Shown: positions 1 through 53,652 of the stretch, in pieces
How positions within the stretch are numbered: position 1 is the first letter of the stretch
Layout of the letters: every line of letters begins with the position of its first letter
NCBI GenBank assembly: GCA_051439345.1
Contig: JBFRWE010000469.1
Location: forward strand, 1 to 57,392
Source of the DNA: Xenococcaceae cyanobacterium
Lineage (GTDB): Bacteria > Cyanobacteriota > Cyanobacteriia > Cyanobacteriales > Xenococcaceae
DNA: 57,392 nt
Direction: 5' to 3'
Program-made: the position numbers and the translations under genes
Notes under the pieces: generated by a model
The model's database searches: none
What the model was told of the DNA's origin: nothing
The model's input: only the letters and a program-made list of their open reading frames with translations

Positions 1-183
1 AATGTAAGCGCAACGCGTGTGGTATATTGGCCAGCACGTCAAAGCGTCTAGCTGGTCTTTGACTGCCAGCACCGATTTATTGTCGGTGACAGCTAGTCAG
101 GTTCTAGGAGTAGTGCGACGCTCTTTGGACTCAAGACCTGGGTTAGAATCTCCGCACTTTCGCTCTCGGAGAGAAGTCAAAGA
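1..183 (+). mobile_element. Window-edge copy of an IS200/IS605 right-end / omega-RNA-like structured unit (possibly the 3' tail of a tnpB lying left of the window)
   Basis: Nested stems ctagct(48-53)/agctag(91-96) enclose hairpin caccga(70-75)/tcggtg(83-88). Terminal hairpin tctccg(149-154)/cggaga(167-172) is followed by gaagtcaaag. Layout and strings (ACAGC...TCAGG, CCGCACTTTCGC) match the units at 42005-42232 and 52930-53079. The translated tail ...GLESPHFRSRREVK resembles read-through tails of tnpB ORFs. Confidence 0.4.
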
Positions 184-196
184 TTCATTGTCTCTT

Positions 197-224
197 GACT
201 AACAACTAACGACTAACGACTAAA
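197..224. repeat. Heptamer tandem repeat (GACTAAC-like, 4 units)
   Basis: gactaac aactaac gactaac gactaaa read directly from the sequence. Resembles the STRR-type short tandem repeats known from cyanobacteria. Confidence 0.8.
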
Positions 225-290
225 AATCTTCACAAGTTCTTCAAGCTTATTTCTTATCTTAAAAGTGGGAGAGAATTATCTAAGAGGTGA

Positions 291-3704: not shown

Positions 3705-3740
3705 GGGACTTAGCATGCTATGTCCGTACGGTGGTTAGTC
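3705..3740. repeat. Imperfect copy of a palindromic intergenic element centred on GCATGC
   Basis: gggacttagcatgctatgtccgtacggtggttagtc matches 5340-5375 at 31 of 36 positions. Confidence 0.75.
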
Positions 3741-3764
3741 CGATTAGTTATCAGGAGAAAAAAA

Positions 3765-5336: not shown

Positions 5337-5364
5337 GTACGGACGTAGCATGCTACGTCCGTAC
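5337..5364. repeat. Perfect 28-nt palindrome (REP-like; possible terminator hairpin)
   Basis: gtacggacgtagcatgctacgtccgtac equals its own reverse complement. It lies 16 nt after the stop of the oxidoreductase gene and is followed by tggttagtagttagt heptamers. Confidence 0.85.
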
Positions 5365-5517
5365 AGTGGTTAGTAGTTAGTTACTATTGACGCTCCAACT
5401 ATCAACTTTCCTATTTGATGTTCATCTCCTACAGCTAAAAGCCCGTAGGTTTCCACACTTACCCTACTGTTTATGACTAATGACTAATCACGAATTCTTT
5501 GCTAGAGAAAATTAAGC

Positions 5518-9527: not shown

Positions 9528-11036
9528 CTATGGTAGCCAGAAGTTAGGCAAGAAAAATTCTAACCCATCTCGCATATTTTGATTAAACTTGCGAGCTATC
9601 TGAATATGAGGCTCATCTGCTTCTACTGGAATAATATTAGCTTGTTTGCCCATACCCAATTGTTGAACTACTAAATTCGCTGCTTCTAGACCAGTAACAT
9701 AAGCTTTTTCTTGTGACCAAGAACCATGGTTGGTAATAATCCAATCTCCACTCATATAAAGATGAGGAATACTTGTCTTACCTCGCAAAAGATGCTGATA
9801 GCTACCAGGTGCAAAATGAGTTACTCCTTGACGGACACGAATTACACTACTGTCTACTATTTTGGCATTACGAAAGCCAGAAACACAAATCCCTAGATCT
9901 TGATGAACTTTATTAATAATTTGTTCATCACTTTGGGGTAACAATTGGTTAGCGTGATAAAAGTCTGCTTCAATTACGCTTCCTGGTTCATCTTTGTATT
10001 CATCGTGTAAAGTGTTGAGGTCAAAAAATGTCCAACCAGTAGTAGCGTCAAAGCCAAAACAGGCATTAGAAGGAAGAGGAATATCTATAAGTCGATCGAA
10101 CCACAATCTAGTTGCTAAAACATCAATTCCTCCTAAGTTACTTAAATTTTGGAATTTAGCATACTTGCTCAAAGTCTGACTACTATTAACAATTTTTTTA
10201 ATGCCACTGACACTCACACCCAAAATAACGGCATCTGCTGTAAATATCTCTTCATCACAGACAACTCCTGTGGCTTTACCTTCACTGTCTAAAACTAGAT
10301 CAGTTACTCTTTTGTTGGTTAATACTTTGCCTCCAGCTTGTTCAATTTGTTCTATCCAAGGCTGAAAAATCTTTGCTCCTACTGTTCCCCTACACCAAAC
10401 TACATCAAAATCAGGTTGATGAGCCAAAATAAAGTAGTAAAGCATTCCTAAAGCAGCAGCAGCAGAACATTGTTCTCCTGGTGCAAATAAACCTACTAGC
10501 AACATCGGTTCAAAAGCTTCTTCATACAATCTAGCAGAAACACCATACTGTTTGAATAGTTCTCTGGCAGTAACTTTATCGTACTTTTGCCATGCTTCAT
10601 GAGAATTATCAAAGTCGATCAATGCGTAGAGGAGGGGAAGTGCAGAAAGGCGATCGATCAATGGTAAACGCTGAAAGCGAGTATAAATAAAAGTGCCTAA
10701 AGGAGTAGGTAATCTCGGTTCATCCTGAAAAATAGGAGATTCTACTTCTAAACCAAAAGGAGAATATTGAGAGGAACGAGTAAAAGGAGTAAAAGGAGCG
10801 AGTTTTAGCTGTTTAACTAAACTAAATATATTCCGATAAGGATACCAAAAACCATGAATTCCCCCTTCTACAGAACGTCCCTGGGCTGTTTTCCATCCAG
10901 CTACTAAACCCCCTGGATAAGCACTGGCTTCTAGCAGAGTAACATCATAACCTTGTTTGGCTAAATGATAAGTTGCGCCTAATCCTGCCCAACCAGCACC
11001 TACAACCACTACTTTGTGCTTATTTTCTGTTGACAT
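9528..11036 (-). CDS. FAD-dependent oxidoreductase (amine oxidase / desaturase-like family)
   Basis: KVVVVGAGWAGLGATYHLAKQGYDVTLLEASAYPGG dinucleotide-binding fold. 502 aa. Confidence 0.85.
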   Translation of the reverse strand: MSTENKHKVVVVGAGWAGLGATYHLAKQGYDVTLLEASAYPGGLVAGWKTAQGRSVEGGIHGFWYPYRNIFSLVKQLKLAPFTPFTRSSQYSPFGLEVESPIFQDEPRLPTPLGTFIYTRFQRLPLIDRLSALPLLYALIDFDNSHEAWQKYDKVTARELFKQYGVSARLYEEAFEPMLLVGLFAPGEQCSAAAALGMLYYFILAHQPDFDVVWCRGTVGAKIFQPWIEQIEQAGGKVLTNKRVTDLVLDSEGKATGVVCDEEIFTADAVILGVSVSGIKKIVNSSQTLSKYAKFQNLSNLGGIDVLATRLWFDRLIDIPLPSNACFGFDATTGWTFFDLNTLHDEYKDEPGSVIEADFYHANQLLPQSDEQIINKVHQDLGICVSGFRNAKIVDSSVIRVRQGVTHFAPGSYQHLLRGKTSIPHLYMSGDWIITNHGSWSQEKAYVTGLEAANLVVQQLGMGKQANIIPVEADEPHIQIARKFNQNMRDGLEFFLPNFWLP

Positions 11037-14777: not shown

Positions 14778-15050
14778 ATAGATTAAGTCCTTTTTTTAAC
14801 TATTATTTTTGAGCTTAGAGATCACTATAAAAAAAATAGATAATATTATCTAATTATTCACTAATACTTTAGATAGTTTAGTTTGGCAGAAAACACTTTT
14901 GACAAAATCACAATAATTGTCGCAGTTGGGAAGCCCATCGCCTTTAGGTATGGGAGGAACAACGAGGCAGCACCGCCGACCAAGCTGGAATTTAATTCCA
15001 GCTTGCACGCGTGCGGTGGCATTCCGCCACTTTTAAGTGCTGTCACAAGG

Positions 15051-15059
15051 TGATATAAT
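15051..15059 (+). promoter_or_regulatory. Candidate extended -10 promoter (TGaTATAAT) for tnpB
   Basis: TGATATAAT ends 7 nt before ATG 15067, which would give a leaderless or near-leaderless mRNA. No experimental support. Confidence 0.3.
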
Positions 15060-15066
15060 CAGGCTT

Positions 15067-16263
15067 ATGAAACAAGTCCTGACTATAGTTTGCAAACTCA
15101 ACCCTTCTCAAAAAGCAGTCAAAATGATAGATACTACTCTTGAGATGTTCGCTGCTGCTTGTAACTATGCTAATCAGGAAGTTAAGCCATCTATAACCAG
15201 CAAAACTACAATTCAATCTTTGGTCTATCAGACCATTAGAGAGAAATACAGTTTGTCTGCTAATTTGGCAGTTAGGGCTTGCGCGAGGGTTGGTGCTAAC
15301 CGCCAAACTGCGAAACAAAAAAACAAGCCAGTGAAAGCATTCAAGCCAACATCGGCGGATTATGATGCTCGGATATTTGCTTTCCGTGAGCAAGACTGGT
15401 CTGTTAGTCTGACTTTGGTTGGCGGTAGAGAGCATATTCCAATTGTTGCTAGCAACTACCAAGTTGGAAAGCTTAAAGGGACTAAACCAACATCGGCACA
15501 GCTTTGTAAGCACAAAGATGGTAGCTACTATATTCATATTCAAGTTAAGGATGAGTCCCCAAAACCAATTAACTCCGATAACGTGATTGGAGTTGATTTT
15601 GGTCGCACTGATATAGCGGTTACTTCTGACCACAAAAAATGGTCTGGTCATGAAATACGTGATGTTAGAGACAAATACTCTAAACTTCGCAGCGTACTCC
15701 AAAAGAAAGCCTCGAAAGGCACACGCAGTAGCAGGCGCAGATGTCGGCAACTGCTGAAACGGCTGTCGGGTAAAGAGAAAAGATTTCAACGCCATACCAA
15801 TCATGTCATCAGCCAAACCATAATTCTTGATGCCAAACAATCTAATAGTCTTGTAGCTATTGAAGATTTGACTGGTATTAGAAATCGAACTAACCAACAA
15901 CCTAGAAGTAAAACCGAAAGAAGACGCTCTAACTCTTGGGCTTTCTATCAGCTTCGTACTTTTCTTGAGTACAAAGGATTGATTAATGGAGTTGAGGTAA
16001 TTCCAGTTTCGCCACGTTATAGCTCGCAAACCTGTCATGCCTGTATGCACTTGGGGTTGAGAAGCGGAAAAAGATTTAAATGTACTAATAGCGGTTGCGG
16101 TTGGCATGGTGATGCTGATGAAAATGCAAGTTATAACTTGTCGATTATTGGAGGGGTTGTAAGCCTCCTTCGAGGTTCGGATTCTTTGTCTTGTGCATTG
16201 AATTCAGGGCTACTGAAATACCATCGCAGCGTGGCGAAAGCCAACGAGCGAAGCGTCCTTTAG
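15067..16263 (+). CDS. tnpB: TnpB (IS200/IS605 OrfB) RNA-guided endonuclease family protein
   Basis: RuvC-I GVDFGRTDIAV, RuvC-II VAIEDLTGI, zinc finger CHAC...CTNSGC, RuvC-III HGDADENASYN. I place the start at ATG 15067 (MKQVLTIVCKLNPSQ). Confidence 0.9.
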   Translation: MKQVLTIVCKLNPSQKAVKMIDTTLEMFAAACNYANQEVKPSITSKTTIQSLVYQTIREKYSLSANLAVRACARVGANRQTAKQKNKPVKAFKPTSADYDARIFAFREQDWSVSLTLVGGREHIPIVASNYQVGKLKGTKPTSAQLCKHKDGSYYIHIQVKDESPKPINSDNVIGVDFGRTDIAVTSDHKKWSGHEIRDVRDKYSKLRSVLQKKASKGTRSSRRRCRQLLKRLSGKEKRFQRHTNHVISQTIILDAKQSNSLVAIEDLTGIRNRTNQQPRSKTERRRSNSWAFYQLRTFLEYKGLINGVEVIPVSPRYSSQTCHACMHLGLRSGKRFKCTNSGCGWHGDADENASYNLSIIGGVVSLLRGSDSLSCALNSGLLKYHRSVAKANERSVL

Positions 16264-16280
16264 GCGTTGGTAAGCTTACT
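16095..16280 (+). ncRNA. Predicted omega-RNA (reRNA) scaffold region of the TnpB element; extent approximate
   Basis: Placed by analogy: TnpB omega-RNAs derive from the tnpB 3' end plus the right end. The right-end hairpin is at 16241-16270. Not verified. Confidence 0.35.
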
Positions 16281-16898
16281 ATACAATCTTTAAGCGAAGA
16301 AAGTTTTATTTATGGCTTACAAGTACTGGCTAATCGCGACGACGATTTAGCCAATATCGTTCAAACTTTAGGAAATCCTCCCAGATGGCAACGAGAAGCA
16401 GGTTTTCCTACCCTAATTCAACTAATTTTAGAACAACAAGTATCTCTTGCTGCTGCAAAGGCTGTATTTGAGCGTTTATGTAGAGTAGTTAATCCTCTTA
16501 CCCCAGAAAATTTTCTTGCTTCAGAAGATACTCAACTCAAAGCGATCGGTTTTAGTCGACAAAAAACCAGATATGGTAGAGCCTTAGCTGATGCTATCAA
16601 GAGTGGTGAACTAGACTTACACCAATTAAGTCAATTAGACGATGCCAAGATTAAAACTAAGTTAAAACAAATTAAAGGTATTGGTGACTGGACAGCAGAT
16701 AACTATATGCTTATGGCATTGCAGCGTCAAAATGTCTTTCCGAAAGGAGATTTAGCTTTAGCGATCGCTGTACAAAAAGTGAAGAAATTACCAACTCGCC
16801 CTAAACCCAAAGAATTAGAAGCGATTGCCGAAAATTGGCAACCTTGGAGAGCGATCGCTGCTAGAATACTTTGGCATTATTATCTTAACAGCAAGTAA
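16191..16898 (+). CDS. DNA-3-methyladenine glycosylase II-like (AlkA/HhH-GPD family); 5' end uncertain
   Basis: HhH motif IKGIGDWTADNYMLMAL and a conserved Asp region. The ORF has no in-frame ATG near its start. The track start is TTG 16191, inside tnpB and the right end. Confidence 0.75.
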   Translation: MCIEFRATEIPSQRGESQRAKRPLGVGKLTIQSLSEESFIYGLQVLANRDDDLANIVQTLGNPPRWQREAGFPTLIQLILEQQVSLAAAKAVFERLCRVVNPLTPENFLASEDTQLKAIGFSRQKTRYGRALADAIKSGELDLHQLSQLDDAKIKTKLKQIKGIGDWTADNYMLMALQRQNVFPKGDLALAIAVQKVKKLPTRPKPKELEAIAENWQPWRAIAARILWHYYLNSK

Positions 16899-24293: not shown

Positions 24294-26132
24294 ATGACCA
24301 AAAGCGATCGACTTTCCTCGTTCCCTGTAAATAATCCTCTTTATCCCTGGAAAACCAAGATGATCGGCAAAAAATGGCTTGGCAGTTTATCTTTATTGCT
24401 CATCCTACCTTTAATTACAGGTAAAGTTATCCTCCCCCAGACAGCTAACGCTCAAACTACTTCTAAACAACAATTTTCTGCAGAAGCAAACATTCTTTAC
24501 GTTGACTCAAAACAAGGAAGAGATCGCCAAGGAGACGGAACTAAGGAATCTCCACTCAAAACTATCACTGAAGCTCTCAAGTTAGCTAAGTCTGACACTA
24601 TTATTCATCTTAATCCTGGGACTTATAACGAACAGACAGGGGAAACTTTTCCTCTGGTTATTAGTAAAAGGGTGACAATTCAGGGTAGTCCTAGTTCTAA
24701 AGGACATAATGTTGTCATTAATGGTAGTGGCGATTTCATCAGTCCCACTGGTGCAGGACAACAAGTAACGATCGCAGCCATTAAAGAAGCTCAAGGATTA
24801 ACAGGTGTAACGGTTATGAATCCTCATTCACGAGGACATGGGTTGTGGATTGAATCTTCTAGTCCTACAGTTACCAATAATAGCTTTATTCGCAATGGCA
24901 ATACAGGACTATCTGTTAACGGTAGAAGTGACCCAAATATTAGTGATAATTATTTTTCTCGTAACGGAGGTAACGGTTTACTTATTTACGGTACATCTAA
25001 ACCTCAAGTAGAAAATAATGAGTTTGAAAATACTGGTTTCGGAGTAAGTATAGTCCAAAACTCCGCACCAACTTTACTTGGTAATACTTTTAGTCGTAAT
25101 CGGATTGGGGTAATCCTAGAAGGTAATTCTCAAGCTGTTTTACGCAACAATGAAATCACTAATTCTGCAGAATCTGGCTTAGTGGCGATCGCTCAATCTA
25201 GAGTAGATTTAGGTACAACTACTCAACCAGGAGAGAATATTTTCCGTGGCAATAAGAACTTAGATATCCAGAATGGCACTCCTAATTCAATCACTGCTGC
25301 TGGTACAGAGATTAGTGGTAAAACAGAAGGAAGTATCGATTTTATGGGTACAGCGATTGCTCCCCGTACTACGGAAACAACTGAGTTAAGACCTCTAAAA
25401 CTTTTATCTCCTCTTTCTCCCAATCAAACTCCCATTTCGAGGGAAGCTTCTCAACCTTTACCTGTTGCGGAAACTGCCAATAGCAATAGTAATACTCTCC
25501 CACAACCTAAAGCCATTACCTATCCTGCCTCTCCTCCAGTATTGAGGGAAGCTTCTCAACCTTTACCTGTTGCGGAAACTGCCAATAGCAGCAGTAATAC
25601 TCTGCCACAACCTAAAGCCATTACCTATCCTGCCTCTTCTCCAGTTTCGAGGGAAGCTTCTGAAACAAAAGCAACCAATGAGTTGGTCTTTACTGTTCCG
25701 CCAGACCCTTCAACTCTCTCAAATTCCACTGTAGAAGAACAGGTTGATAGCTCATCAAGTAAAACTGACATCGATCGACCAGCTAAATTACCAGTTCCTG
25801 CTGTTCCGCAATCTAGTGCTCTTAGTCCTCAAATTAAGCCTTCAACTCTGACATCCTCTCCCCAAAATACCCAAATAAGTAGTTTGTCTGATGTCTTAGG
25901 AGGCAACTCTATAGCTAGTACTAGTACAAGCACAACTAAGTATAAAGTAATTGCGGAAGCTACCAGTGATAGCCAAAAAGCACAAGTGCGATCGATGTAT
26001 CCTGATGCTTTTAATACTACTTACCAAGGTAAATCTATGCTGCAAGTAGGAGTTTTTGGTAATCAAAATACCGCCGAAAATGTCTTGCAATCTCTAGAAA
26101 AAATAGGCATACAGGGAATTATTCTTAATTAA
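24294..26132 (+). CDS. Secreted right-handed beta-helix (DUF1565-like) protein with Pro/Ser-rich repeats and a C-terminal SPOR-like domain
   Basis: Signal/TM segment, DUF1565-like ILYVDSKQG...GTKESPLKTITEAL, parallel beta-helix NxxxN repeats, a 35-aa tandem repeat, and C-terminal LQVGVFGNQNTAENVLQSLEKIG. Confidence 0.8.
   Translation: MTKSDRLSSFPVNNPLYPWKTKMIGKKWLGSLSLLLILPLITGKVILPQTANAQTTSKQQFSAEANILYVDSKQGRDRQGDGTKESPLKTITEALKLAKSDTIIHLNPGTYNEQTGETFPLVISKRVTIQGSPSSKGHNVVINGSGDFISPTGAGQQVTIAAIKEAQGLTGVTVMNPHSRGHGLWIESSSPTVTNNSFIRNGNTGLSVNGRSDPNISDNYFSRNGGNGLLIYGTSKPQVENNEFENTGFGVSIVQNSAPTLLGNTFSRNRIGVILEGNSQAVLRNNEITNSAESGLVAIAQSRVDLGTTTQPGENIFRGNKNLDIQNGTPNSITAAGTEISGKTEGSIDFMGTAIAPRTTETTELRPLKLLSPLSPNQTPISREASQPLPVAETANSNSNTLPQPKAITYPASPPVLREASQPLPVAETANSSSNTLPQPKAITYPASSPVSREASETKATNELVFTVPPDPSTLSNSTVEEQVDSSSSKTDIDRPAKLPVPAVPQSSALSPQIKPSTLTSSPQNTQISSLSDVLGGNSIASTSTSTTKYKVIAEATSDSQKAQVRSMYPDAFNTTYQGKSMLQVGVFGNQNTAENVLQSLEKIGIQGIILN
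25441..25665 (+). repeat. 105-bp tandem repeat (2 full copies plus a partial one) inside the CDS
   Basis: gggaagcttctcaacctttacctgttgcggaaactgccaatagc... recurs at 25441, 25546 and 25651. It encodes REASQPLPVAETANS.SNTLPQPKAITYPAS. Confidence 0.9.
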
Positions 26133-28127: not shown

Positions 28128-28829
28128 CTATTTCCATGCACTACAATCAACAGGTTGTTTAGGGTCGGAAGCATGAGCTTGTTGGAGTAGCTCGATAAAT
28201 TGCTGATTAGCTTGTTTATCAATTAGCCATTCCTCATAGTCATCATCGAATTGACCTTTGTAAAAAGCGTTTTCCCAATTACAGGCTGATTTAATTTGAG
28301 TAGGAGTGAGATTTTTAGTGTTAATGAGGATGGCACTTGAGAGATTAGCATTGGTGATGTCAACACTCTTGAGATTAGCATTGGATAAGTTGGCACGATA
28401 GATATCAGCATTTTTGAGGTTAGCATTGGCGAGATTAGCATTGGAGAGATTAGTAAGATAGATGTCAGCATTTTTGAGATTAGCATTTTTGAGGTTAGCA
28501 TTGGAGAGATTAGCACGATGGATGTGAGCAGCTTCAAGATTAGCATCTTCAAGATTAGTATTGGAGAGATTAAGTAGCTTTAATTTTTTCTGAGCTTTGA
28601 CAAGTTTTTCTAAAGCCTCAATAATTGGAATTTGCCAACAATTGTTATTTAAAGAACAATCATAGACTAATTGTCGCTCGGCATTAAGTTTAATTTTGCG
28701 CCCAATAAAATAGCCAGCCAGAATTGAAACTAAGAGGAAAAAAATAAGCAAGATGAGGCAATTAGTTTTCGGCTGTTTGTTAGTTCTGTCTGGCAAATTT
28801 GTAGCAAATTCTGATTGATTAATTTTCAT
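28128..28829 (-). CDS. Membrane-anchored pentapeptide-repeat protein
   Basis: N-terminal TM (CLILLIFFLLVSILAGYFI) followed by a long ANLxNANLxN pentapeptide run. Confidence 0.85.
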   Translation of the reverse strand: MKINQSEFATNLPDRTNKQPKTNCLILLIFFLLVSILAGYFIGRKIKLNAERQLVYDCSLNNNCWQIPIIEALEKLVKAQKKLKLLNLSNTNLEDANLEAAHIHRANLSNANLKNANLKNADIYLTNLSNANLANANLKNADIYRANLSNANLKSVDITNANLSSAILINTKNLTPTQIKSACNWENAFYKGQFDDDYEEWLIDKQANQQFIELLQQAHASDPKQPVDCSAWK

Positions 28830-41173: not shown

Positions 41174-44100
41174 TTACAATTTATGTTTTGTGTTCAGATA
41201 TTTATCAGTTTCTCGCAATCGCTTACTCAAGAAGCGACATATTTCTAAAATAATGTGGGGACGTTGAGTTATCAAACTGATAAAGCGTTTTTTTTCTAAC
41301 TTGAGTAGAGTGCAATCTCGAAGAGCGATCGCGCCATCCCAACGAGGTGCATTATCAAAGAGTGCTACTTCACCAAAATATTGTCCTTGAGATAGTTGTT
41401 TAATCTCTTGTTGTTCTCCATCGAGAGTTTTGATGATTTTGATAGTACCTTCGGCAATAATATAGAGATGATCGCCCCAACTACCCTCAGTGTAGATAGT
41501 TTCATTGCTTAATACTTGTTGTTGCTCTAGTGCTTTATCGATTAAGAATAGCTCGTCTAAAGAAAGGTTTTTAAACAGAGCCACATTTTTAAGTAACAGT
41601 AATCGGTTCATCGATGAATTAGTGGGGGAAAGAAGTTGACAAGAAGAAGGAAAAATTTCTCTGGCAACCAATTGAACCACAGGATCGCTATCTTTGAGTA
41701 AGGTAGATGGTATCACCGCCAAAGCTATCAACGCACCAGTTCTGATCCATCTATCTTTGGACTCTAAGGCTTCAAGGAGTATTTTATAGCCTTTGTTTCT
41801 CAACCATTGAGGGTTAACAGTACTGGCGTTCACTTCTTTAAGTTGAACTTTATTTCCTGGTGGTTCTTGTTTGACCGAGAGGGGTGGCGGGGTTTCCTGA
41901 GGGGCTGTGACTCGAATCGAATTCGAGTCCTTGAAAGCCCCGTCGCCATACCCCTCGACAGTTTCTTTAAGCGGTGCGTACGCGGAGCGACTACCGTCAG
42001 GTCTCCTGCGGAATTTATAATCCGCAAAGCGGTCAGACCCCGCGTCGGCGAAAGACGCGTCTTGAAAAAGTTGCTCATGGGGGGAACCCCCATGAGCGCA
42101 CTTTTCCGCAAGGGAACGCTGACCAAGACAGGAACGCGCACCAAAAGAAACCCGACGGGGCTTACAAGGGGCAGACGCAGGTTCTGCCCACGGCCCCTTC
42201 CCAACGGACTGTCTCGCAATCGAGGTGTTGACTATTTGTTCGAGTAGGGGAACCAAGGGCAAGATAAAACGGCGATGATTTAAAGAAACTAGTACTTCTA
42301 CCGCGTTAGCCAAGTCTCTTTGCTCTGTCGTGGCTAAAATCCGCGTGACAGCCTTAACTGTACGAGAATAGCCCAGACAAGAAAGGATATACAAAACTTT
42401 TTGAATTAAACGTTGATGGTAATCATTAATCGCGATCGCTAAAGGTTGCCAACTAGGATCGTTTGGGGGGATTTGTTGTTGCCACTTACGAGTGCGAGTC
42501 AGTTGCTCAAACTCAGGAGTCAGATATTTAAATAAAATATCATTAGCGTATCGGTTTTGTACTTTGGCAATAGCTTCGATCGCTGTATCTACTACTTCTT
42601 TTTGCGGAGATGATAAACTTGCTTGAGCTAAAGATAACCCTGGTTTGCCATAAGCTGCTAAGGCACTAGCTACTTGCTGACGCACTCTGGGATGAGGATC
42701 GCTCAGTCCAGTTTTGAGGTAAGGTAGCATTTCTGCACAACGGGTAATCCCTAATAGCTTAAAGGCAGCAGTTCTTACTAATGGTTCAGAATTACCAATT
42801 TCTTTAACAGCTACTTCGGCTAAATCATAATTATCGACAGAAGCCAAGACACTTAAAGCTTCTAGTCCTTCTCGTTTAATTTCTGCATTAGCTTGAGGCA
42901 AGATATTAATCACTAAAGGAACTAATTCTTGCTGATGGCAATGAGTAATAATTCTCAAAATAGCTTTAGCAGTACTCTTTTCTAAAGAGGATTGCCAGAT
43001 TTTTGCCCAAGCAGTTTCTTGATTAGTAGTTTTGATACTAATAGCAGCTACCGCAGCTAATAACCGAATAGTGCGATCGCCATCTTGAAGCAAAGAGTCA
43101 ATTTGTTCTGGACTAAAAGTATATTGGCTAGCAATTAAAATTTCTAAAGCAGTTGTCCGTAAAATTGTTTGATTGTCTGGAGTTAGCCAATTTTTGAATT
43201 CTTCAATTGCTTCTGCTTCAGGAGTCGTAGCCAACAATTTAACCACTCCATGATGTACCTTTGTATCTCCCCTGAATAGTAGGGTTTTTACTTCGGGTAA
43301 AAATTGACTAGAGTTGCCCAAATTAGCTGCTAATTCTAAACCTTTGATTTGAACATAGGGGTCTTCATTAGTGAGTAATTCCCGAATTGCATTACTAGAC
43401 TGAGGTGGTAGCTGAGTTTGATACTCACTAAAATCATCTAGATTGATAGTATTAGAGCGGATCATCTCTTCCAAACTCTGAGCATAAAATTTCCCCATGG
43501 GTAGACGCACTAATAACAGTAGCACCGTCAAACCCGCAGCTAGCCAGGTAATTTGCCCCAGACTGAGATAGAGAGTGCATAACCACAACAGCACACCAGC
43601 TAAAGTCAGTCCTACAGAGTAAATGACACCATCACTCAAAGCACGAACTCTGCCGATAAATTCTTGAGGAACTCCATTGTAGTTTAACTGGTGTACAGGC
43701 AAATTAATTGCTTTGTAGAGTGCATCCCCATTGATATGCAGTCCAATGGCAGCCAACAAATTAAAATTAAGCAATAATCCTGAAAAGCTGATTAAGGTTG
43801 TCAGAGGATACACTGGATTCATCTGCGCTACCCCTAGCCACTTCAGTAAGGGACGAGTAAGAGCGTAGAGAACAACTACTTGCACCAAGCTAATAAGAAT
43901 CCGCATTAAACCCAGAAACTCAGTTAAAGCTTCTTCACTAAAATGCTGACCATAAATATTGAACCAGAGAAACTCCGAACTGATGTAGATAATTACCAGT
44001 AAAAAACTACTACTAGCCAAAAACGATACTAAAGGATAGCGTTTGACTAAATCGGGAAAGGTTTGCAGTGATTCAATAATTCCCGTTTTAGTTTTAGCGT

Positions 44101-44698
44101 AAATACGATCTATCCGTCTTTGAGATTTTTCTAGATAAACCAGTTGAGCAAAGGCAACTGCAAATAGAACTGGCAGACAAAATAGTAAATCCCTTGTTCT
44201 CAGATAATGAGACAAAACTACTGTCAGACCACCACCCAACATAGTACCTACTGCTTGAGCAATACCAATAAAAGGTGCATATTGCTTGTACTCTAAAGTA
44301 GTGAAATAGTCTGTTAATAAACTAGGATAAAGAATATTGTTATGAAAATCCCACTGGAAGAAAATAGCAATTAGCAGAATGTAATAAACTGCAACTACAT
44401 CTAAACTTAGTAATAAACGCAGTCCCAAGATCGCGAAAATAGAGAGCAGCAATATGTAGCGAAATAATTTAGGGCGACTATAGCGATCGATAATTTGTGA
44501 AAAGATGACATAAGCAGGCATAGAACATAATCCAATCAGGATAAAGGCAAAGGGTAAGTTACCTGCCCCAACATGACTAACAAACAAAGAGTTAGCTACT
44601 GCCATCGCTACTACGCTATAGCTTAAAACCGTAACCGCTAAAAGCAAAAGTTGAGTTAAACGACCGACTGGGTTAATTGAGAGACCTAAACGTTCCAC
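41174..44698 (-). CDS. Fusion protein: N-terminal multi-pass transporter-like domain (MFS/TLC-like), HEAT/armadillo-type repeats, C-terminal cyclic-nucleotide-binding domain; carries an in-frame insert of about 121 aa
   Basis: About 12 hydrophobic helices in the first 420 aa. HEAT-like repeats (DPHPRVRQQVASALA etc.). C-terminal cNMP beta-roll YFGEVALFDNAPRWDGAIA. The ORF is continuous through the GC-rich element. Confidence 0.85.
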   Translation of the reverse strand: MERLGLSINPVGRLTQLLLLAVTVLSYSVVAMAVANSLFVSHVGAGNLPFAFILIGLCSMPAYVIFSQIIDRYSRPKLFRYILLLSIFAILGLRLLLSLDVVAVYYILLIAIFFQWDFHNNILYPSLLTDYFTTLEYKQYAPFIGIAQAVGTMLGGGLTVVLSHYLRTRDLLFCLPVLFAVAFAQLVYLEKSQRRIDRIYAKTKTGIIESLQTFPDLVKRYPLVSFLASSSFLLVIIYISSEFLWFNIYGQHFSEEALTEFLGLMRILISLVQVVVLYALTRPLLKWLGVAQMNPVYPLTTLISFSGLLLNFNLLAAIGLHINGDALYKAINLPVHQLNYNGVPQEFIGRVRALSDGVIYSVGLTLAGVLLWLCTLYLSLGQITWLAAGLTVLLLLVRLPMGKFYAQSLEEMIRSNTINLDDFSEYQTQLPPQSSNAIRELLTNEDPYVQIKGLELAANLGNSSQFLPEVKTLLFRGDTKVHHGVVKLLATTPEAEAIEEFKNWLTPDNQTILRTTALEILIASQYTFSPEQIDSLLQDGDRTIRLLAAVAAISIKTTNQETAWAKIWQSSLEKSTAKAILRIITHCHQQELVPLVINILPQANAEIKREGLEALSVLASVDNYDLAEVAVKEIGNSEPLVRTAAFKLLGITRCAEMLPYLKTGLSDPHPRVRQQVASALAAYGKPGLSLAQASLSSPQKEVVDTAIEAIAKVQNRYANDILFKYLTPEFEQLTRTRKWQQQIPPNDPSWQPLAIAINDYHQRLIQKVLYILSCLGYSRTVKAVTRILATTEQRDLANAVEVLVSLNHRRFILPLVPLLEQIVNTSIARQSVGKGPWAEPASAPCKPRRVSFGARSCLGQRSLAEKCAHGGSPHEQLFQDASFADAGSDRFADYKFRRRPDGSRSAYAPLKETVEGYGDGAFKDSNSIRVTAPQETPPPLSVKQEPPGNKVQLKEVNASTVNPQWLRNKGYKILLEALESKDRWIRTGALIALAVIPSTLLKDSDPVVQLVAREIFPSSCQLLSPTNSSMNRLLLLKNVALFKNLSLDELFLIDKALEQQQVLSNETIYTEGSWGDHLYIIAEGTIKIIKTLDGEQQEIKQLSQGQYFGEVALFDNAPRWDGAIALRDCTLLKLEKKRFISLITQRPHIILEICRFLSKRLRETDKYLNTKHKL
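41870..42232 (+). mobile_element. Composite GC-rich structured element (TnpB right-end/omega-RNA-like units, no tnpB) inside the 1174-aa ORF; boundaries approximate
   Basis: Abrupt GC-rich block. Exact 24-nt match cctgcggaatttataatccgcaaa (42005-42028 = 52930-52953). Hairpins at 41909-41929, 42041-42059, 42073-42097 and 42169-42189. An inverted truncated arm at 41870-41942 matches 52954-53000 in reverse complement. Confidence 0.7.
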
Positions 44699-51789: not shown

Positions 51790-52719
51790 ATGGTAAAAAC
51801 TGACGAAAAATTAATCAATCCCGATAATCAAACTGCTTTTGACCTCCATAGCTATCTCAAGCAAAGAAAAAATTTAGTAGAAGAAGCCTTAAATAATTCT
51901 CTGACTATCAAAAAACCAGAGACAATTTATCAAGCCATGCGCTACTCTCTGTTAGCTGGAGGAAAGCGTCTAAGACCTATTTTGTGTCTGGCTACCTGTG
52001 AATTAACAGGGGGAAGCATAGAGATAGCCATGCCTACTGCTTGCGCCCTAGAAATGATTCATACCATGTCTTTAATCCATGACGACCTGCCCGCTATGGA
52101 TAATGATGATTATCGTCGTGGTCAATTAACCAATCATAAAGTTTATGGCGATGATATCGCTATTTTGGCTGGAGATGGACTACTCGCCTATGCTTTTGAA
52201 TATGTAGCTGTTAATACTCACAATGTTCCTGCCGAAAGAATTGTCAAAGTAATTGCTCGTCTAGGGCGTACAGTAGGAGCAGAAGGATTAGTAGGCGGTC
52301 AAGTTTTAGACTTAGAATCTGAAGGTAAAGCTGATATTTCTGCTCAAACTCTTAGTTTTATTCATACCCATAAAACGGGAGCATTATTAGAAACTTCTGT
52401 GGTATCTGGAGCAATTTTAGCAGGAGCTTCGGCAGAAGACATTACTAAGCTATCTAGGTATGCTCAAAATATTGGTTTAGCTTTCCAAATTATCGATGAT
52501 ATTTTGGATATTACTGCCACTGATGAAGAATTGGGCAAAACTGCTGGCAAGGATTTACAAGCACAAAAAGCAACCTACCCTAGTTTATGGGGCATAGAAA
52601 AATCACGAATTCAAGCACAAAATTTAATAGATGAGGCGATCGCCCAGTTAACAACCTATGGAGAAAAAGCTGAACCATTACAAGAGATTGCTAACTATAT
52701 AATCACTCGTAAGCATTAG
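51790..52719 (+). CDS. crtE: Geranylgeranyl diphosphate synthase (type II polyprenyl synthetase)
   Basis: First Asp-rich motif [17 protein letters not shown] and second motif IIDDILD. Confidence 0.92.
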
Positions 52720-52765
52720 AATTCTGGCATAAACTTAGACAAATCTTGGTTAAGTCAGAAATTAC

Positions 52766-53079
52766 TCCGCCCTTCGGGTTCAACAGTTCTTGCTCCGTCC
52801 TATACGCGCTCGGAAACCTCAGCGCGGGCGGTGCGCTTTGCTCAAGCGGTGCGCGGGGAGGGGGGTTTTATCATCAGATGGATCGGCTAGAAGTACAGAC
52901 TTAAAATTATTAGAAACCCCCCTTCCACCCCTGCGGAATTTATAATCCGCAAACGGGGCTTTCAAGCACCTGAACCAAGTTCAGGTGACAGCCCCTCAGG
53001 AACGCGCACCGAGGGAAACCAGCCCACCGCAACTGTTTCACAAGACCGCACTTTCGCGCTGCTCTGACCGTTGGTCAAG
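52766..53079 (+). mobile_element. Intergenic GC-rich structured unit, TnpB right-end/omega-RNA-like, without tnpB
   Basis: GC-rich island in AT-rich spacer. Long stem ggggaggggggttt/aaaccccccttccacccc. Hairpin gcggaatt-TATAAT-ccgc. Nested stems ggggct(52955-52960)/agcccc(52990-52995) around cacctgaac(52967-52975)/gttcaggtg(52979-52987). The tail CCGCACTTTCGC...ggtcaag parallels 153-183. Confidence 0.7.
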
Positions 53080-53187
53080 TAATCAAGTAACGAGTTACTG
53101 ATTTTGATTTAAAATTTACTTTGGCAAGAGGTCTATTAAACTTTCTCTTAGACGATGTTGTTGTATCGGGATAATCAAATATAAATT

Positions 53188-53652
53188 ATGCAGGACGTTG
53201 GTGACATTTTCCAAAACCAGATATTAGTGGTAGCAATTTTTGCTTGTTTAGCTGCCCAAGGATTGAAATTAGTCATTGAGGTAATTAAAAACGGCAAAGT
53301 CAATATCCGCCATCTTGTTACTGCGGGAGGAATGCCTAGCGCCCACTCTGCCCTAGTAGGTGCTTTGGCAACTGGTATTGGTCAAACTATGGGATGGTCA
53401 TCACCAGAATTTGCGATCGCTTGTCTATTTGCGGTGATTGTTATGTATGATGCTGCGGGAGTCCGCCAAGCAGCAGGGAAACAAGCCAAAATTCTTAATC
53501 AAATCATTGATGAATTGTTTCAAGAAGGACATCACGTTAGTGAAGAAAGATTAAAAGAATTATTAGGACACACCCCTTTTCAAGTATTTGTAGGTTTGGC
53601 TTTGGGAATTGGTATTTCGATGATGGTTTCTTCTGTTTTTGGCACAAGTTAA
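53188..53652 (+). CDS. Divergent PAP2 family membrane protein (DUF212-like)
   Basis: GGMPSAHSA and the YDAAGVR region. 154 aa with multiple TM segments. Confidence 0.85.
   Translation: MQDVGDIFQNQILVVAIFACLAAQGLKLVIEVIKNGKVNIRHLVTAGGMPSAHSALVGALATGIGQTMGWSSPEFAIACLFAVIVMYDAAGVRQAAGKQAKILNQIIDELFQEGHHVSEERLKELLGHTPFQVFVGLALGIGISMMVSSVFGTS

What the first reader, a model, noticed from the sequence alone, without database searches (positions are those of the whole stretch)
52766..53079. Intergenic TnpB-less omega-RNA-like unit between crtE and the PAP2 gene, with a -10-like hexamer in a conserved hairpin loop
**What the sequence shows**
- A 314-nt GC-rich island sits in an otherwise AT-rich 468-nt spacer.
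- Its 3' 150 nt are collinear with the window-edge unit at 17-183. The order is: hairpin with a TATAAT/TATATT loop (gcggaatt-TATAAT-ccgc versus cgtgtgg-TATATT-..ccagcacg), a nested two-stem module, the string CCGCACTTTCGC, then a terminus ...GGTCAAG / ...AGTCAAAG.
- The distance from the module to the terminus is nearly the same in the two copies (79 versus 82 nt).
- A small hairpin plus T-rich run follows (agtaacgagttactgattttgattt, about 53078-53104).

**Interpretation**
- Established knowledge: TnpB uses an omega-RNA made from the tnpB 3' end plus the right end, and the guide is the flanking DNA.
- Inference: this could be a stand-alone guide-RNA gene or a PATE/MITE-like derivative, possibly transcribed from its own -10 element.
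- If so, its guide would be the roughly 16-20 nt after ...ggtcaag (taatcaagtaacgagtt...).
Basis: partly seen in the sequence, partly recalled or inferred. Interest (0 to 1): 0.72.

Follow-up and report, generated by a model that had tools for sequence, protein, structure and literature searches.

The report
Nested hairpin repeats, not guide RNA
The GC-rich island between crtE and the PAP2-like gene is a 325-base mobile insertion made of small hairpin repeats nested inside one another; it is not a stand-alone TnpB guide-RNA gene, and it is of moderate interest as a probably undescribed repeat family of pleurocapsalean cyanobacteria.

Summary
The island is real. It is a discrete 325-nt insertion, 52754-53078, 55% GC in a 29% GC spacer. 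The closest relative (97-99% identical flanks) has the site empty and scarless. Two more distant relatives carry 110- and 215-nt versions with the same ends.

The outer shell is a repeat whose commonest form elsewhere is a 53-nt double-stem hairpin ending in GGTCAA. In 10 of 11 enlarged copies the extra DNA sits at the hairpin apex. Nested inside unit A are a second hairpin element, a 'core' hairpin with an AT-rich loop, a 20-nt TATAAT palindrome and a 41-nt module.

The module is abundant in Pleurocapsales and has a strongly covarying, almost purely Watson-Crick inner stem. The same pieces form a 357-nt in-frame insertion in a HEAT/cNMP gene at 41871-42227.

The claimed collinearity with 17-183 reduces to one 12-mer plus a TCAA terminus. 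The module model does not hit the edge unit. No tnpB 3' region aligns beyond the module.

The link to IS200/IS605 is indirect. The module often sits in TnpB element ends, unit A ends in TCAA, and there is no target duplication.

Verdict: a MITE/REP-like nest and a new member of a known kind. The guide-RNA reading is not supported.

The parts
52754..53078 (+). Unit A: the whole 325-nt insertion (GTCAGAAATTACTCC...CTGACCGTTGGTCAA) in the crtE-DUF212 spacer
   Evidence: The sister contig L122 has the site empty (CTTGGTTAA|GTAATCAAG). L119 carries 110 nt and L138 215 nt at the same site with the same ends. Boundaries are ambiguous by +/-2 nt.
52754..52771 (+). 5' arm of the outer 53-nt-type hairpin element (GTCAGAAATTACTCCGCC)
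   Evidence: Matches the 5' end of the 53-nt consensus GTCAGAGATTACTCCGCCGTAAAACGACGGAGCCTGCTCTGACCGTTGGTCAA, found in 37 metagenome loci.
53058..53078 (+). 3' arm and tail of the outer element (GCTGCTCTGACCGTTGGTCAA), with the terminal mini-hairpin TGACC-gtt-GGTCA and the TCAA end
   Evidence: Identical 3' end in L072, L119, L138 and about 35 other loci.
52772..52788 (+). 5' arm of the second-level hairpin element (CTTCGGGTTCAACAGTT); its 3' arm is at 53013-53041
   Evidence: The pair GAAACAGTT / AACTGTTTC is shared with L119, L138, L006 and L093.
53013..53041 (+). 3' arm of the second-level element (GGGAAACCAGCCCACCGCAACTGTTTCAC)
   Evidence: Aligned to L119 and L138; also present in L006, L093 and L096.
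52796..52838 (+). Extra GC-rich hairpin segment (CGTCC...CGCGCTCGGAAACCTCAGCGCG...) absent from L119 and L138
   Evidence: Alignment A5. A similar segment occurs in L046 and on a Stanieria NIES-3757 plasmid.
52845..53012 (+). 'Core2' hairpin element: AGCGGTGCGC-GGGGAGGGGGGTTTT, an AT-rich loop (52870-52913), AAACCCCCCTTCCACCCC, an insert slot, then ACGCGCACCGA
   Evidence: Homologous copies in L038, L110, L113 and L093 (65-85% identity over 88-248 nt). The loop is inverted in L093.
52932..52951 (+). 20-nt palindromic repeat TGCGGAATTTATAATCCGCA (the 'TATAAT-loop hairpin')
   Evidence: Identical copies at 42007-42026 (opposite orientation relative to the module) and in L006. No promoter-like site on the plus strand.
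52951..53003 (+). 41-nt double-stem module (GGGGCTTTCAAG-CACCTGAACCAAGTTCAGGTG-ACAGCCCC at 52955-52995) with its AC / TCAGGAA flanks
   Evidence: Covariance model R1 scores 66.8 bits, E = 2.5e-15. There are 71 unique copies in cyanobacterial loci. All 8 inner-stem pairs covary.
41871..42227 (-). Unit B: a 357-nt (119-codon) in-frame insertion of the same repeat mosaic in the HEAT/cNMP-binding ORF 41174-44698. It carries modules at 41893-41945 (-) and 42153-42205 (+) and the TATAAT palindrome at 42007-42026.
   Evidence: Absent from orthologs of 1040-1060 aa. L122 has a 225-nt variant at the same site. A versus B local alignment: 0 of 300 shuffles reach the observed score.
1..183 (+). Window-edge unit: an IS608-like TnpB right end cut by the contig start (...GAATCTCCGCACTTTCGCTCTCGGAGAGAAGTCAAAG). 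It is not a copy of unit A.
   Evidence: Fits the signature of GAATC, hairpin and GTCAA seen downstream of TnpB genes in L012, L059, L060, L076, L078, L092 and L098. No module hit.
15037..16263 (+). Intact TnpB gene of the window (context only, not part of unit A). Its left-end hairpin lies at about 14960-15030 and its right end at about 16140-16290.
   Evidence: PF07282 at 1.9e-19 and PF01385 at 4.4e-08. No similarity to unit A. The homolog in L048 carries an inserted module.

Best explanation
Unit A (52754-53078) is a composite, non-autonomous mobile insertion: a nest of small palindromic repeats of the REP/MITE/SDR kind.

Anatomy. The outer shell is a member of a repeat family whose basic unit is a 53-nt double-stem hairpin with a 10-nt tail ending in TCAA. 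Further hairpin elements have accumulated at the apex of its inner hairpin:
- a GAAACAGTT/AACTGTTTC element;
- a 'core2' hairpin with G-rich and C-rich arms and an AT-rich loop;
- within core2, a 20-nt TATAAT palindrome and a 41-nt module.

Shown:
- It is an insertion polymorphism with four states at one orthologous site.
- Each component recurs independently elsewhere.
- Enlargement happens at hairpin apices.
- There is no target-site duplication.
- Its absence from the sister genome is seamless.

Inferred:
- The units are moved in trans as single-stranded DNA hairpins by a Y1/HUH transposase (IS200/IS605 TnpA or a RAYT-like enzyme).
- They preferentially land, or survive, in unpaired loops and other safe sites, including TnpB-element ends and tolerant linkers of proteins.
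- Stems are kept perfectly Watson-Crick, and hairpins flipped, by intramolecular template switching during replication.

The island is not a gene. At most it adds a long structured segment to the crtE 3' UTR or the DUF212 5' region.
For: Insertion:
- Empty site in L122 (97-99.4% identical flanking genes), 110 nt in L119, 215 nt in L138 and 325 nt in the window, all with identical ends.

Outer element:
- 37 metagenome loci carry the right end. The 53-nt form is the commonest (25 copies), in unrelated flanks.
- Position -1 is A in 24 of 29 copies, and there is no duplication.
- In 10 of 11 enlarged copies the extra DNA lies at consensus positions 18-26, the apical loop.

Module:
- 71 unique copies, mostly in Pleurocapsales/Xenococcaceae and other cyanobacteria.
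- 96% of cells are paired, all 8 inner pairs covary, and the covariation score is 0.467 against 0.10 in shuffles.
- 510 Watson-Crick pairs against 8 G-T and 6 A-C.
- Exact hairpin flips occur between near-identical copies: L038/L110 and L064/L080.

Other components:
- Core2 copies in L038, L110, L113 and L093.
- TATAAT palindrome copies at 42007-42026 and in L006.
- The same mosaic is inserted in frame in a HEAT/cNMP gene. It is absent in orthologs and differs in content in L122.
- Family members occur in finished genomes of cultured strains: Stanieria PCC 7437 and Chondrocystis NIES-4102 plasmids.

Link to IS200/IS605:
- Modules lie 25-67 nt upstream of TnpB ORFs, always in sense orientation, or at the TnpB C-terminus/right-end region. 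This holds for 13 of 77 modules and 13 of 24 TnpB segments.
- L048 versus the window TnpB shows a module as an insertion.
- Unit A and TnpB right ends both end in TCAA.
- The 53-nt unit aligns to the bottom strand of the L059 IS605 left end, including the same C.A mismatch (11 of 2000 shuffles).
Against: - No transposase or full-length element with these ends was found. No Y1 or TnpB motif lies next to any 53-nt copy in L123-L159, and the longest distance between left and right ends is 325 nt.
- IS200/IS605 elements insert 3' of a conserved 4-5-nt target. Here only position -1 (A) is conserved.
- A single-hairpin 53-nt unit lacks the separate left-end and right-end hairpins that the IS608 paradigm needs.
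- The seamless loss in L122 could equally be replication slippage between the imperfect 8-nt direct repeats GGTTAAGT and GGTCAAGT that flank the palindrome.
- Enrichment of modules near TnpB genes is modest (about 2.4-fold by my rough estimate). It could reflect survival in safe havens rather than shared machinery.
- Transcription was not tested.
Confidence: 0.72

Rival explanations
1. Stand-alone, TnpB-less omega-RNA-like guide RNA gene. The unit would be transcribed from its own -10 in the hairpin loop. Its 3' part would form an omega-RNA scaffold, and the 16-20 nt after GGTCAAG would guide a TnpB encoded elsewhere.
For: - The unit ends exactly at an insertion boundary with TCAA, as TnpB right ends do.
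- It shares a 12-mer, CCGCACTTTCGC, with the edge right end.
- The end-free global alignment with 17-183 is slightly better than shuffles (6 of 1000).
- A TnpB gene and a second right end exist in the window.
Against: - No significant alignment to any TnpB 3' region or right end.
- The signature of GAATC, hairpin and GTCAA is lacking.
- The 3' end belongs to a 53-nt repeat that occurs dozens of times without any scaffold.
- The spacing from module to terminus arises from nesting.
- The 12-mer lies in a repeated sub-motif also found in Chondrocystis.
- The TATAAT hairpin is an orientation-independent repeat with no -35 partner.
- The stems show no G-U excess, which argues against selection at the RNA level.
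- The unit is absent from the sister genome.
Confidence: 0.04
2. A PATE in the strict sense: an internal-deletion derivative of one particular IS200/IS605 (TnpA/TnpB) element. It would retain that element's left and right ends and be mobilised by its TnpA, with later decay.
For: - TCAA terminus, no duplication and seamless absence.
- The inner hairpin resembles the L059 IS605 left-end hairpin on the bottom strand, p about 0.005.
- The module is a usual occupant of TnpB left ends.
- B-type copies lie 3' of GTCAA in 2 of 2 cases.
Against: - No full-length parent with these ends in about 160 loci.
- The minimal and commonest form is a single 53-nt hairpin. A deletion process would not regenerate it repeatedly.
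- No conserved 4-5-nt target 5' of the left end.
- The right end differs from the TnpB right-end signature.
Confidence: 0.12
3. Not transposed at all. The palindromes would grow and spread by replication template switching, slippage and recombination or gene conversion between dispersed repeats, and the nest at this site would have grown in situ.
For: - Exact hairpin and loop flips.
- Near-perfect Watson-Crick stems with G-T roughly equal to A-C.
- Imperfect direct repeats flank unit A.
- Internal content differs between close relatives at both sites.
Against: Dozens of near-identical 53-nt and 41-nt copies sit in unrelated flanks with sharp boundaries. They occur across genera and on plasmids, which requires de novo insertion events. 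L048 versus the window TnpB shows a clean 48-nt gain.
Confidence: 0.08
4. A domesticated cis-acting element: a structured 3' UTR, insulator or terminator for crtE, or a regulatory leader for the DUF212 gene.
For: The unit sits 34 nt after the crtE stop and 109 nt before the DUF212 start. It is strongly structured (z = -3.75). REP-type elements are known to affect mRNA stability (established knowledge; reviewed in PMC3733652).
Against: - Four different states, including an empty one, occur at the same site in close relatives.
- No terminator-like site was found.
- The same pieces sit inside coding genes.
Confidence: 0.04

Closest known systems
REP / BIME elements and REPINs mobilised by RAYTs (Y1 HUH transposases)
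   Same: Short (20-50 nt), GC-rich imperfect palindromes in high copy, mostly extragenic and sometimes intragenic. They are clustered into mosaics, inserted within other palindromes, lack target duplications and show compensatory stem variation (PMC3733652 and PMC3116915).
   Different: No GTAG or CGTC tag. The architecture is a double stem with an asymmetric internal loop plus a 7-10-nt tail. No flanked RAYT gene was seen. The nesting is hierarchical, with up to four levels. The family also occupies TnpB element ends.
Small dispersed repeats (SDR4-6) of Nostocales (Elhai et al. 2008, Genome Res 18:1484). Recalled from memory; the paper is not held.
   Same: Very small cyanobacterial repeats that insert into one another and into hairpins, are polymorphic between close relatives, and have no known transposase.
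   Different: Different sequences, a larger unit (41-53 nt against 21-27 nt) and a different order (Pleurocapsales/Chroococcales). No direct comparison could be made.
PATEs / MITEs of the IS200/IS605 family
   Same: Non-coding and hairpin-rich, with no inverted-repeat-plus-duplication signature, seamless presence or absence, and a TCAA-type right terminus as in IS608. They co-reside with many TnpB elements.
   Different: No parent IS with matching ends, no conserved 4-5-nt target, a single hairpin in the minimal unit, and a right end that does not match the TnpB right-end signature.
TnpB omega-RNA (right-end-derived guide RNA)
   Same: Ends at a transposon boundary with ...GTCAA. A short string is shared with a true right end in the same contig.
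   Different: No adjacent tnpB, no scaffold homology, no GAATC-hairpin terminal motif, dispensable, and DNA-type rather than RNA-type stem conservation.
Rickettsia palindromic elements (RPE; Ogata et al. 2000, from memory; RPE-4/6 are cited as CGTC REPs in PMC3733652)
   Same: Palindromic repeats inserted in frame in protein-coding genes and presumably translated (unit B; the Stanieria Dam methylase).
   Different: Unrelated sequence and host. Here the intragenic copy is a multi-element nest of 357 nt.

Membership tests
TnpB omega-RNA / IS200-IS605 right end | Lies at or overlaps the 3' end of a tnpB gene, or is demonstrably derived from one | tested here: not met
   The neighbours are crtE and DUF212. 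No TnpB-like ORF lies in or next to the island.
TnpB omega-RNA / IS200-IS605 right end | Scaffold homologous to the 3' region or right end of a cognate TnpB | tested here: not met
   No blastn hit to the window TnpB right end or to the edge unit beyond 15 nt. Hits to TnpB-bearing loci are confined to the inserted 41-nt module. Local alignment to 17-183 has p about 0.05.
TnpB omega-RNA / IS200-IS605 right end | Terminal motif of this lineage's right ends: GAATC, hairpin, 3-6 nt, GTCAA | tested here: not met
   The motif is found at 14 TnpB-type right ends, including window 1-183. Unit A and the 53-nt copies instead have GATTA, a hairpin, 21 nt and GTCAA.
TnpB omega-RNA / IS200-IS605 right end | Transcribed, with the guide being the flanking 16-20 nt, and bound by TnpB | not testable with these tools
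   No expression data are available. The consensus scan finds no plus-strand promoter at the TATAAT.
PATE / IS200-IS605-derived MITE | No terminal inverted repeats with target duplication; seamless insertion and excision | tested here: met
   The empty site is CTTGGTTAA|GTAATCAAG. The left flank is GGTTAA and the element's own end is GGTCAA. Flanks of 29 copies show no duplication.
PATE / IS200-IS605-derived MITE | Ends identical to those of a full-length IS encoding TnpA and/or TnpB | tested here: not met
   None was found among 161 fetched loci and the window. This is only a sample of the genomes, so absence is not proven.
PATE / IS200-IS605-derived MITE | Insertion 3' of a conserved tetra- or pentanucleotide target | tested here: inconclusive
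   For the A-type, only position -1 is conserved (A in 24 of 29 copies). For the B-type, 2 of 2 copies lie after GTCAA.
REP / REPIN-RAYT | Short imperfect palindrome in many dispersed copies with compensatory stem changes | tested here: met
   There are 71 unique module copies and at least 37 copies of the 53-nt family. All 8 inner pairs covary.
REP / REPIN-RAYT | Conserved unpaired GTAG (or CGTC) tag at one end | tested here: not met
   The consensus is ggAC-GGGGCTT... for the module and GTCAGAG... for the 53-nt unit, whose first bases are paired.
REP / REPIN-RAYT | A RAYT gene flanked by the repeats in the same genome | not tested
   Only 8-kb loci around repeats were available. Three IS200-type TnpA ORFs were seen (L059, L098, L131), and none is flanked by the repeats.
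Small dispersed repeats (Elhai 2008) | Very small repeats nested within each other and within hairpins, polymorphic between relatives | tested here: met
   Four states occur at one site, and in 10 of 11 enlarged copies the extra DNA lies at the hairpin apex.
Small dispersed repeats (Elhai 2008) | Sequence identity with SDR1-8 consensus sequences | not testable with these tools
   The paper is not held. A string search of the library found no paper with these sequences.

The most novel reading that the evidence does not exclude
The 41-nt and 53-nt units share one design: an outer stem, an asymmetric internal loop, a variable inner hairpin and a short tail ending in AA. They may be minimal single-hairpin transposons that target unpaired hairpin loops, that is, a target defined by structure rather than sequence. 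They would be serviced by the Y1 transposase of the co-resident IS200/IS605/TnpB elements, whose left ends and omega-RNA regions they routinely occupy. If so, they would be a new class of hyper-parasite of TnpB elements. They could remodel omega-RNAs, and they could build translated insertions in proteins.
Probability: 0.2. Interest if true: 0.65.

Novelty: new member of a known kind. Interest (0 to 1): 0.35.

Why it matters
For annotation, GC-rich structured islands in AT-rich pleurocapsalean genomes should be read as nests of mobile palindromes, not as RNA genes. A TCAA terminus alone does not mark an omega-RNA.

For biology, the family offers a clean natural series for studying how very small palindromic repeats move and nest:
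- four states at one orthologous site (empty, 110, 215 and 325 nt);
- an in-frame 119-codon insertion in a conserved protein;
- repeated occupation of TnpB element ends;
- exact hairpin flips between near-identical copies.

If a Y1 transposase is shown to move a 53-nt single hairpin, that would define the smallest known substrate for this transposition chemistry.

Tried and rejected
- **Rfam.** The gathering-threshold scan of the whole window and the E-value scan of 52600-53300 gave nothing relevant. This is uninformative for omega-RNA, because the window's genuine TnpB right ends are not hit either.
- **MAFFT alignment of the unit with 1-215.** No meaningful alignment.
- **Exact-protein look-up of the DUF212 protein.** Not on record.
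- **Protein search with the 120-aa peptide encoded by island B**, to look for the repeat translated in other proteins. No hits.
- **blastn of the edge unit and of the window TnpB ends against all loci.** No informative homologs, so the gene upstream of the contig start could not be recovered.
- **Motif scans for Y1 and TnpB next to the 53-nt copies.** Nothing found.
- **Elhai 2008 SDR paper.** Not held. A string search of the paper library for the repeat sequences gave only chance matches in unrelated papers.
- **Covariance model of the TnpB right end.** Abandoned because the MAFFT alignment put the hairpins out of register. A pattern test was used instead.
- **Intron.** Considered for island B and rejected: no Rfam intron hit, large indels between sister contigs, and the reading frame is kept.
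- **Assembly artefact.** Rejected, because the same element sits at the same site in independent assemblies and family members occur in finished genomes.
- **4-5-bp target duplication (AAGT or GTYAA).** Rejected from the flanks of 29 copies.
- **Stop-free frames in island B.** Three of six frames are stop-free, against 2 of 2000 shuffles with three or more. This is not taken as evidence of design, because palindromy links frames on the two strands.
Full report
**1. The observation**

The spacer between crtE (51790-52719, polyprenyl synthetase) and the DUF212/divergent-PAP2 gene (53188-53652) is 468 nt. It contains a GC-rich block: 55% GC over 52754-53078 against 29% for the rest of the spacer. 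With a 150-nt window and a threshold of 54% GC, only two such islands exist in the 57-kb contig: this one and 41851-42275.

The island folds better than dinucleotide shuffles (z = -3.75). Rfam gives nothing at gathering thresholds for the whole window and nothing relevant at E <= 10 for the region. Rfam also fails to hit the genuine TnpB right ends of this contig, so that negative result says nothing about omega-RNAs.

**2. The claimed relative at 17-183**

- blastn with 7-nt words finds only a 15-nt match, E = 8.3.
- The best local alignment is the 12-mer CCGCACTTTCGC plus three bases, and 48 of 1000 shuffles score as high. An end-free global alignment is slightly unusual, with 6 of 1000 shuffles reaching the observed score.
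- A covariance model of the nested two-stem module (built) hits three places in the window at E < 1e-12 and nothing in 1-183 even at E <= 10.
- The 12-mer in unit A belongs to a repeated sub-motif, CAAGACCGCACTTTCGCGCTGC. It recurs next to the same right end on a Chondrocystis plasmid.

The collinearity is therefore not confirmed. What the two units do share is the terminal TCAA.

The edge unit fits the right-end signature seen downstream of TnpB genes in related loci: GAATC, a hairpin, 3-6 nt, then GTCAA. The contig therefore probably starts inside a TnpB element.

**3. The real relative**

The longest inverted repeat in the window pairs 52953-53002 with 41894-41943. The second island lies inside the 1174-aa ORF 41174-44698 on the minus strand, which carries HEAT repeats and a cNMP-binding domain. 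It contains:
- two copies of the 41-nt module in opposite orientations;
- an identical copy of the 20-nt TATAAT palindrome, inverted relative to the module.

In the A versus B alignment, none of 300 shuffles reaches the observed score. Because the shared pieces differ in relative orientation, they are independent modules rather than parts of one conserved RNA.

**4. Both islands are insertions**

Orthologs of the HEAT/cNMP protein are 1040-1060 aa long. The window protein has 119 extra residues between LLEQI and VKQEPP. One close relative, P0002, has a shorter insert at the same place.

Fetching the contigs gave syntenic loci:
- L122 is the sister, with 97-99.4% nucleotide identity in six flanking gene segments.
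- L119, L120, L121 and L138 are more distant, at 92-96%.

At the crtE-DUF212 site:
- L122 is empty (...CTTGGTTAA|GTAATCAAG...).
- L119 carries 110 nt, L138 carries 215 nt and the window carries 325 nt.
- All three filled sites begin GTCAGARATTAC and end CTGCTCTGACCGTTGGTCAA.

The insert is therefore 52754-53078, with boundaries ambiguous by +/-2 nt. The left flank (GGTTAA) and the element's own end (GGTCAA) differ, so there is no true duplication.

The sister lacks an element that both the window and the outgroup carry. The simplest history is an old insertion followed by a seamless loss in L122. Island B is 41871-42227 (357 nt). It is absent in the outgroup and present with different internal content (225 nt) in L122.

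**5. Anatomy of unit A**

*The outer shell.* A metagenome scan with the right end returned 37 loci.
- The commonest form is a 53-nt element, GTCAGAGATTACTCCGCCGTAAAACGACGGAGCCTGCTCTGACCGTTGGTCAA, seen in 25 copies.
- Its structure is an outer stem GTCAGAG/CTCTGAC, an internal loop ATTA/CCTG, an inner hairpin with a conserved C.A mismatch and compensatory variants, and a 10-nt tail.
- Flanks are unrelated. Only position -1 is biased, being A in 24 of 29 copies.
- In 10 of 11 enlarged copies the extra DNA lies at consensus positions 18-26, the apex of the inner hairpin.

*The nested contents of unit A.*
- A second hairpin element whose arms include CAACAGTT and AACTGTTTCAC (GAAACAGTT/AACTGTTTC in L119), shared with L119 and L138.
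- An extra GC-rich hairpin at 52796-52838.
- A 'core2' hairpin at 52845-53012, with G-rich and C-rich arms and an AT-rich loop. Copies occur in L038, L110, L113 and L093, and in L093 the loop is inverted.
- In a slot of core2, the TATAAT palindrome (52932-52951) and the 41-nt module (52955-52995).

**6. The 41-nt module**

Matches of exactly 41 nt are almost all cyanobacterial: Xenococcaceae, Pleurocapsa, Hyella, Halothece, Okeania, Moorena, Chroococcus and others.

- The 71 unique copies give the consensus ggAC-GGGGCTTWCAAG-N5GAA-loop-TTCN5-ACAGCCCC-TCnnnAA.
- On 60 copies, 96% of cells pair and all eight inner-stem pairs change on both sides. The covariation score is 0.467, against 0.10 in shuffles and 0.05-0.10 in slid registers. 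The outer stem was fixed by the search pattern and so says nothing.
- Inner-stem pairs are 510 Watson-Crick, 8 G-T and 6 A-C. The absence of a wobble excess argues for a constraint or a generating mechanism at the DNA level rather than the RNA level.
- Near-identical copies differ by an exact flip of the inner hairpin: L038/L110 and L064/L080. This is the signature of intramolecular template switching (inference).

**7. Relation to TnpB elements**

The window holds an intact TnpB at 15037-16263 (PF07282, PF01385). It has no similarity to unit A.

In the module-bearing loci, phmmer finds 24 TnpB-like ORF segments, and 13 of them have a module within 400 nt. The positions are regular:
- 25-67 nt upstream of the ORF segment and always in sense orientation (L084, L085, L092). 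Variant or offset modules sit just upstream of the ORF in L048, L060 and L111.
- Between the C-terminal RuvC motif and the right-end hairpin, in either orientation (L012, L048, L066, L076, L078, L094, L098).

L048 encodes a close homolog of the window TnpB (E = 1e-176). It has a module plus a 7-nt tail where the window copy has none, so there the module is an insertion.

Further points on the IS200/IS605 link:
- In at least L078 and L092, the hairpins that match between left and right ends, which I take to be the TnpA sites, are different sequences from the module.
- The 53-nt unit aligns with the bottom strand of the left end of an IS605-type element in L059, including the same C.A mismatch (11 of 2000 shuffles).
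- No 53-nt copy lies next to a transposase.

The family thus belongs to the IS200/IS605 'ecosystem', but no parent element was found.

**8. How it most likely works**

*Shown:*
- mobility, from sharp boundaries, unrelated flanks and polymorphism between relatives;
- spread across genera and onto plasmids of cultured strains;
- nesting at hairpin apices;
- no duplication;
- seamless absence in the sister genome.

*Inferred:*
- mobilisation in trans as single-stranded hairpins by a Y1/HUH enzyme (TnpA or RAYT-like);
- loops and other tolerant sites as places where insertions land or survive;
- template switching keeping the stems perfect.

*Against the proposed mechanism:*
- there is no conserved 4-5-nt target;
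- the minimal unit has only one hairpin;
- no linked enzyme was found;
- slippage between GGTTAAGT and GGTCAAGT could explain the loss in L122.

I put about 0.8 on the identity claim and about 0.4 on the enzyme.

**9.

The MITE/PATE-like alternative is broadly right. The guide-RNA gene is not supported:
- there is no scaffold homology;
- the TnpB right-end signature is absent;
- the TATAAT hairpin is an orientation-independent repeat without a -35 partner;
- stem conservation is of the DNA type;
- the unit is dispensable.

**10. Comparison and novelty**

The closest known kinds are:
- REP/BIME/REPIN elements (PMC3733652, PMC3116915);
- the small dispersed repeats of Nostocales (Elhai 2008, recalled from memory);
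- IS200/IS605 PATEs;
- for island B, the in-frame palindromic elements of Rickettsia.

The family differs from these by its double-stem-plus-tail design, the lack of a GTAG or CGTC tag, hierarchical nesting, and regular occupation of TnpB element ends. No paper in the library contains these sequences, although that search is limited.

I class the finding as a new member of a known kind. The finding as submitted is ordinary, but the family has features worth a follow-up. Interest: 0.35.

Noticed in passing
window 41871-42227 (minus strand), inside ORF 41174-44698: A 357-nt (119-codon) nest of the same repeats is inserted in frame between the HEAT repeats and the cNMP-binding domain of a conserved 1055-aa protein. 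The sister contig L122 has a 225-nt variant, and all other orthologs lack it. Three of six frames are stop-free, against 2 of 2000 shuffles with three or more, although palindromy inflates this figure.
   Followed up: partly
window 15037-16263 (+), with ends at about 14920-15036 and 16140-16290: An intact TnpB gene (PF07282, PF01385) with its own left-end hairpin and right end. A close homolog in L048 carries a 41-nt module plus a 7-nt tail inserted just after the C-terminal RuvC motif.
   Followed up: partly
window 1-183: The contig begins inside an IS608-like TnpB right end (GAATCTCCGCACTTTCGCTCTCGGAGAGAAGTCAAAG). The assembly probably broke at a repeated IS.
   Followed up: partly
L038 7416-7468 vs L110 1639-1691; L064 2322-2374 vs L080 1732-1784; L093 about 2470-2530 vs window 52870-52913: Near-identical copies differ by an exact reverse-complement flip of the inner hairpin, or of the AT-rich loop of core2. 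This suggests template-switch inversion within palindromes.
   Followed up: no
L119 about 2290-2430 and L138 about 10360-10500: The more distant relatives carry a second, unrelated 138-nt insert 42 nt downstream of the unit A site in the same crtE-DUF212 spacer. The window and L122 lack it.
   Followed up: no
L160 2431-2570 (Stanieria cyanosphaera PCC 7437 plasmid pSTA7437.02, NC_019749.1 51141-51280): Core2-like arms plus a module variant lie within the first 45 codons of the annotated Dam methylase CDS WP_015195660.1, in a finished genome of a cultured strain.
   Followed up: no
L020 5326-5425: Two 41-nt modules in tandem, 18 nt apart. They have identical flanks (ggac...tccagaaggc) and differ only in the loop of the inner hairpin.
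   Followed up: no
window 200-225, 3730-3746, 5360-5381: Short tandem heptamer-like runs (taacgac / gttagta) of the STRR type typical of cyanobacteria, at gene ends.
   Followed up: no
window 28310-28587 and 25429-25664: Tandem repeats of 15/30 nt (nine overlapping copies) and of 105 nt (two to three copies) within ORFs, reported by the repeat finder.
   Followed up: no
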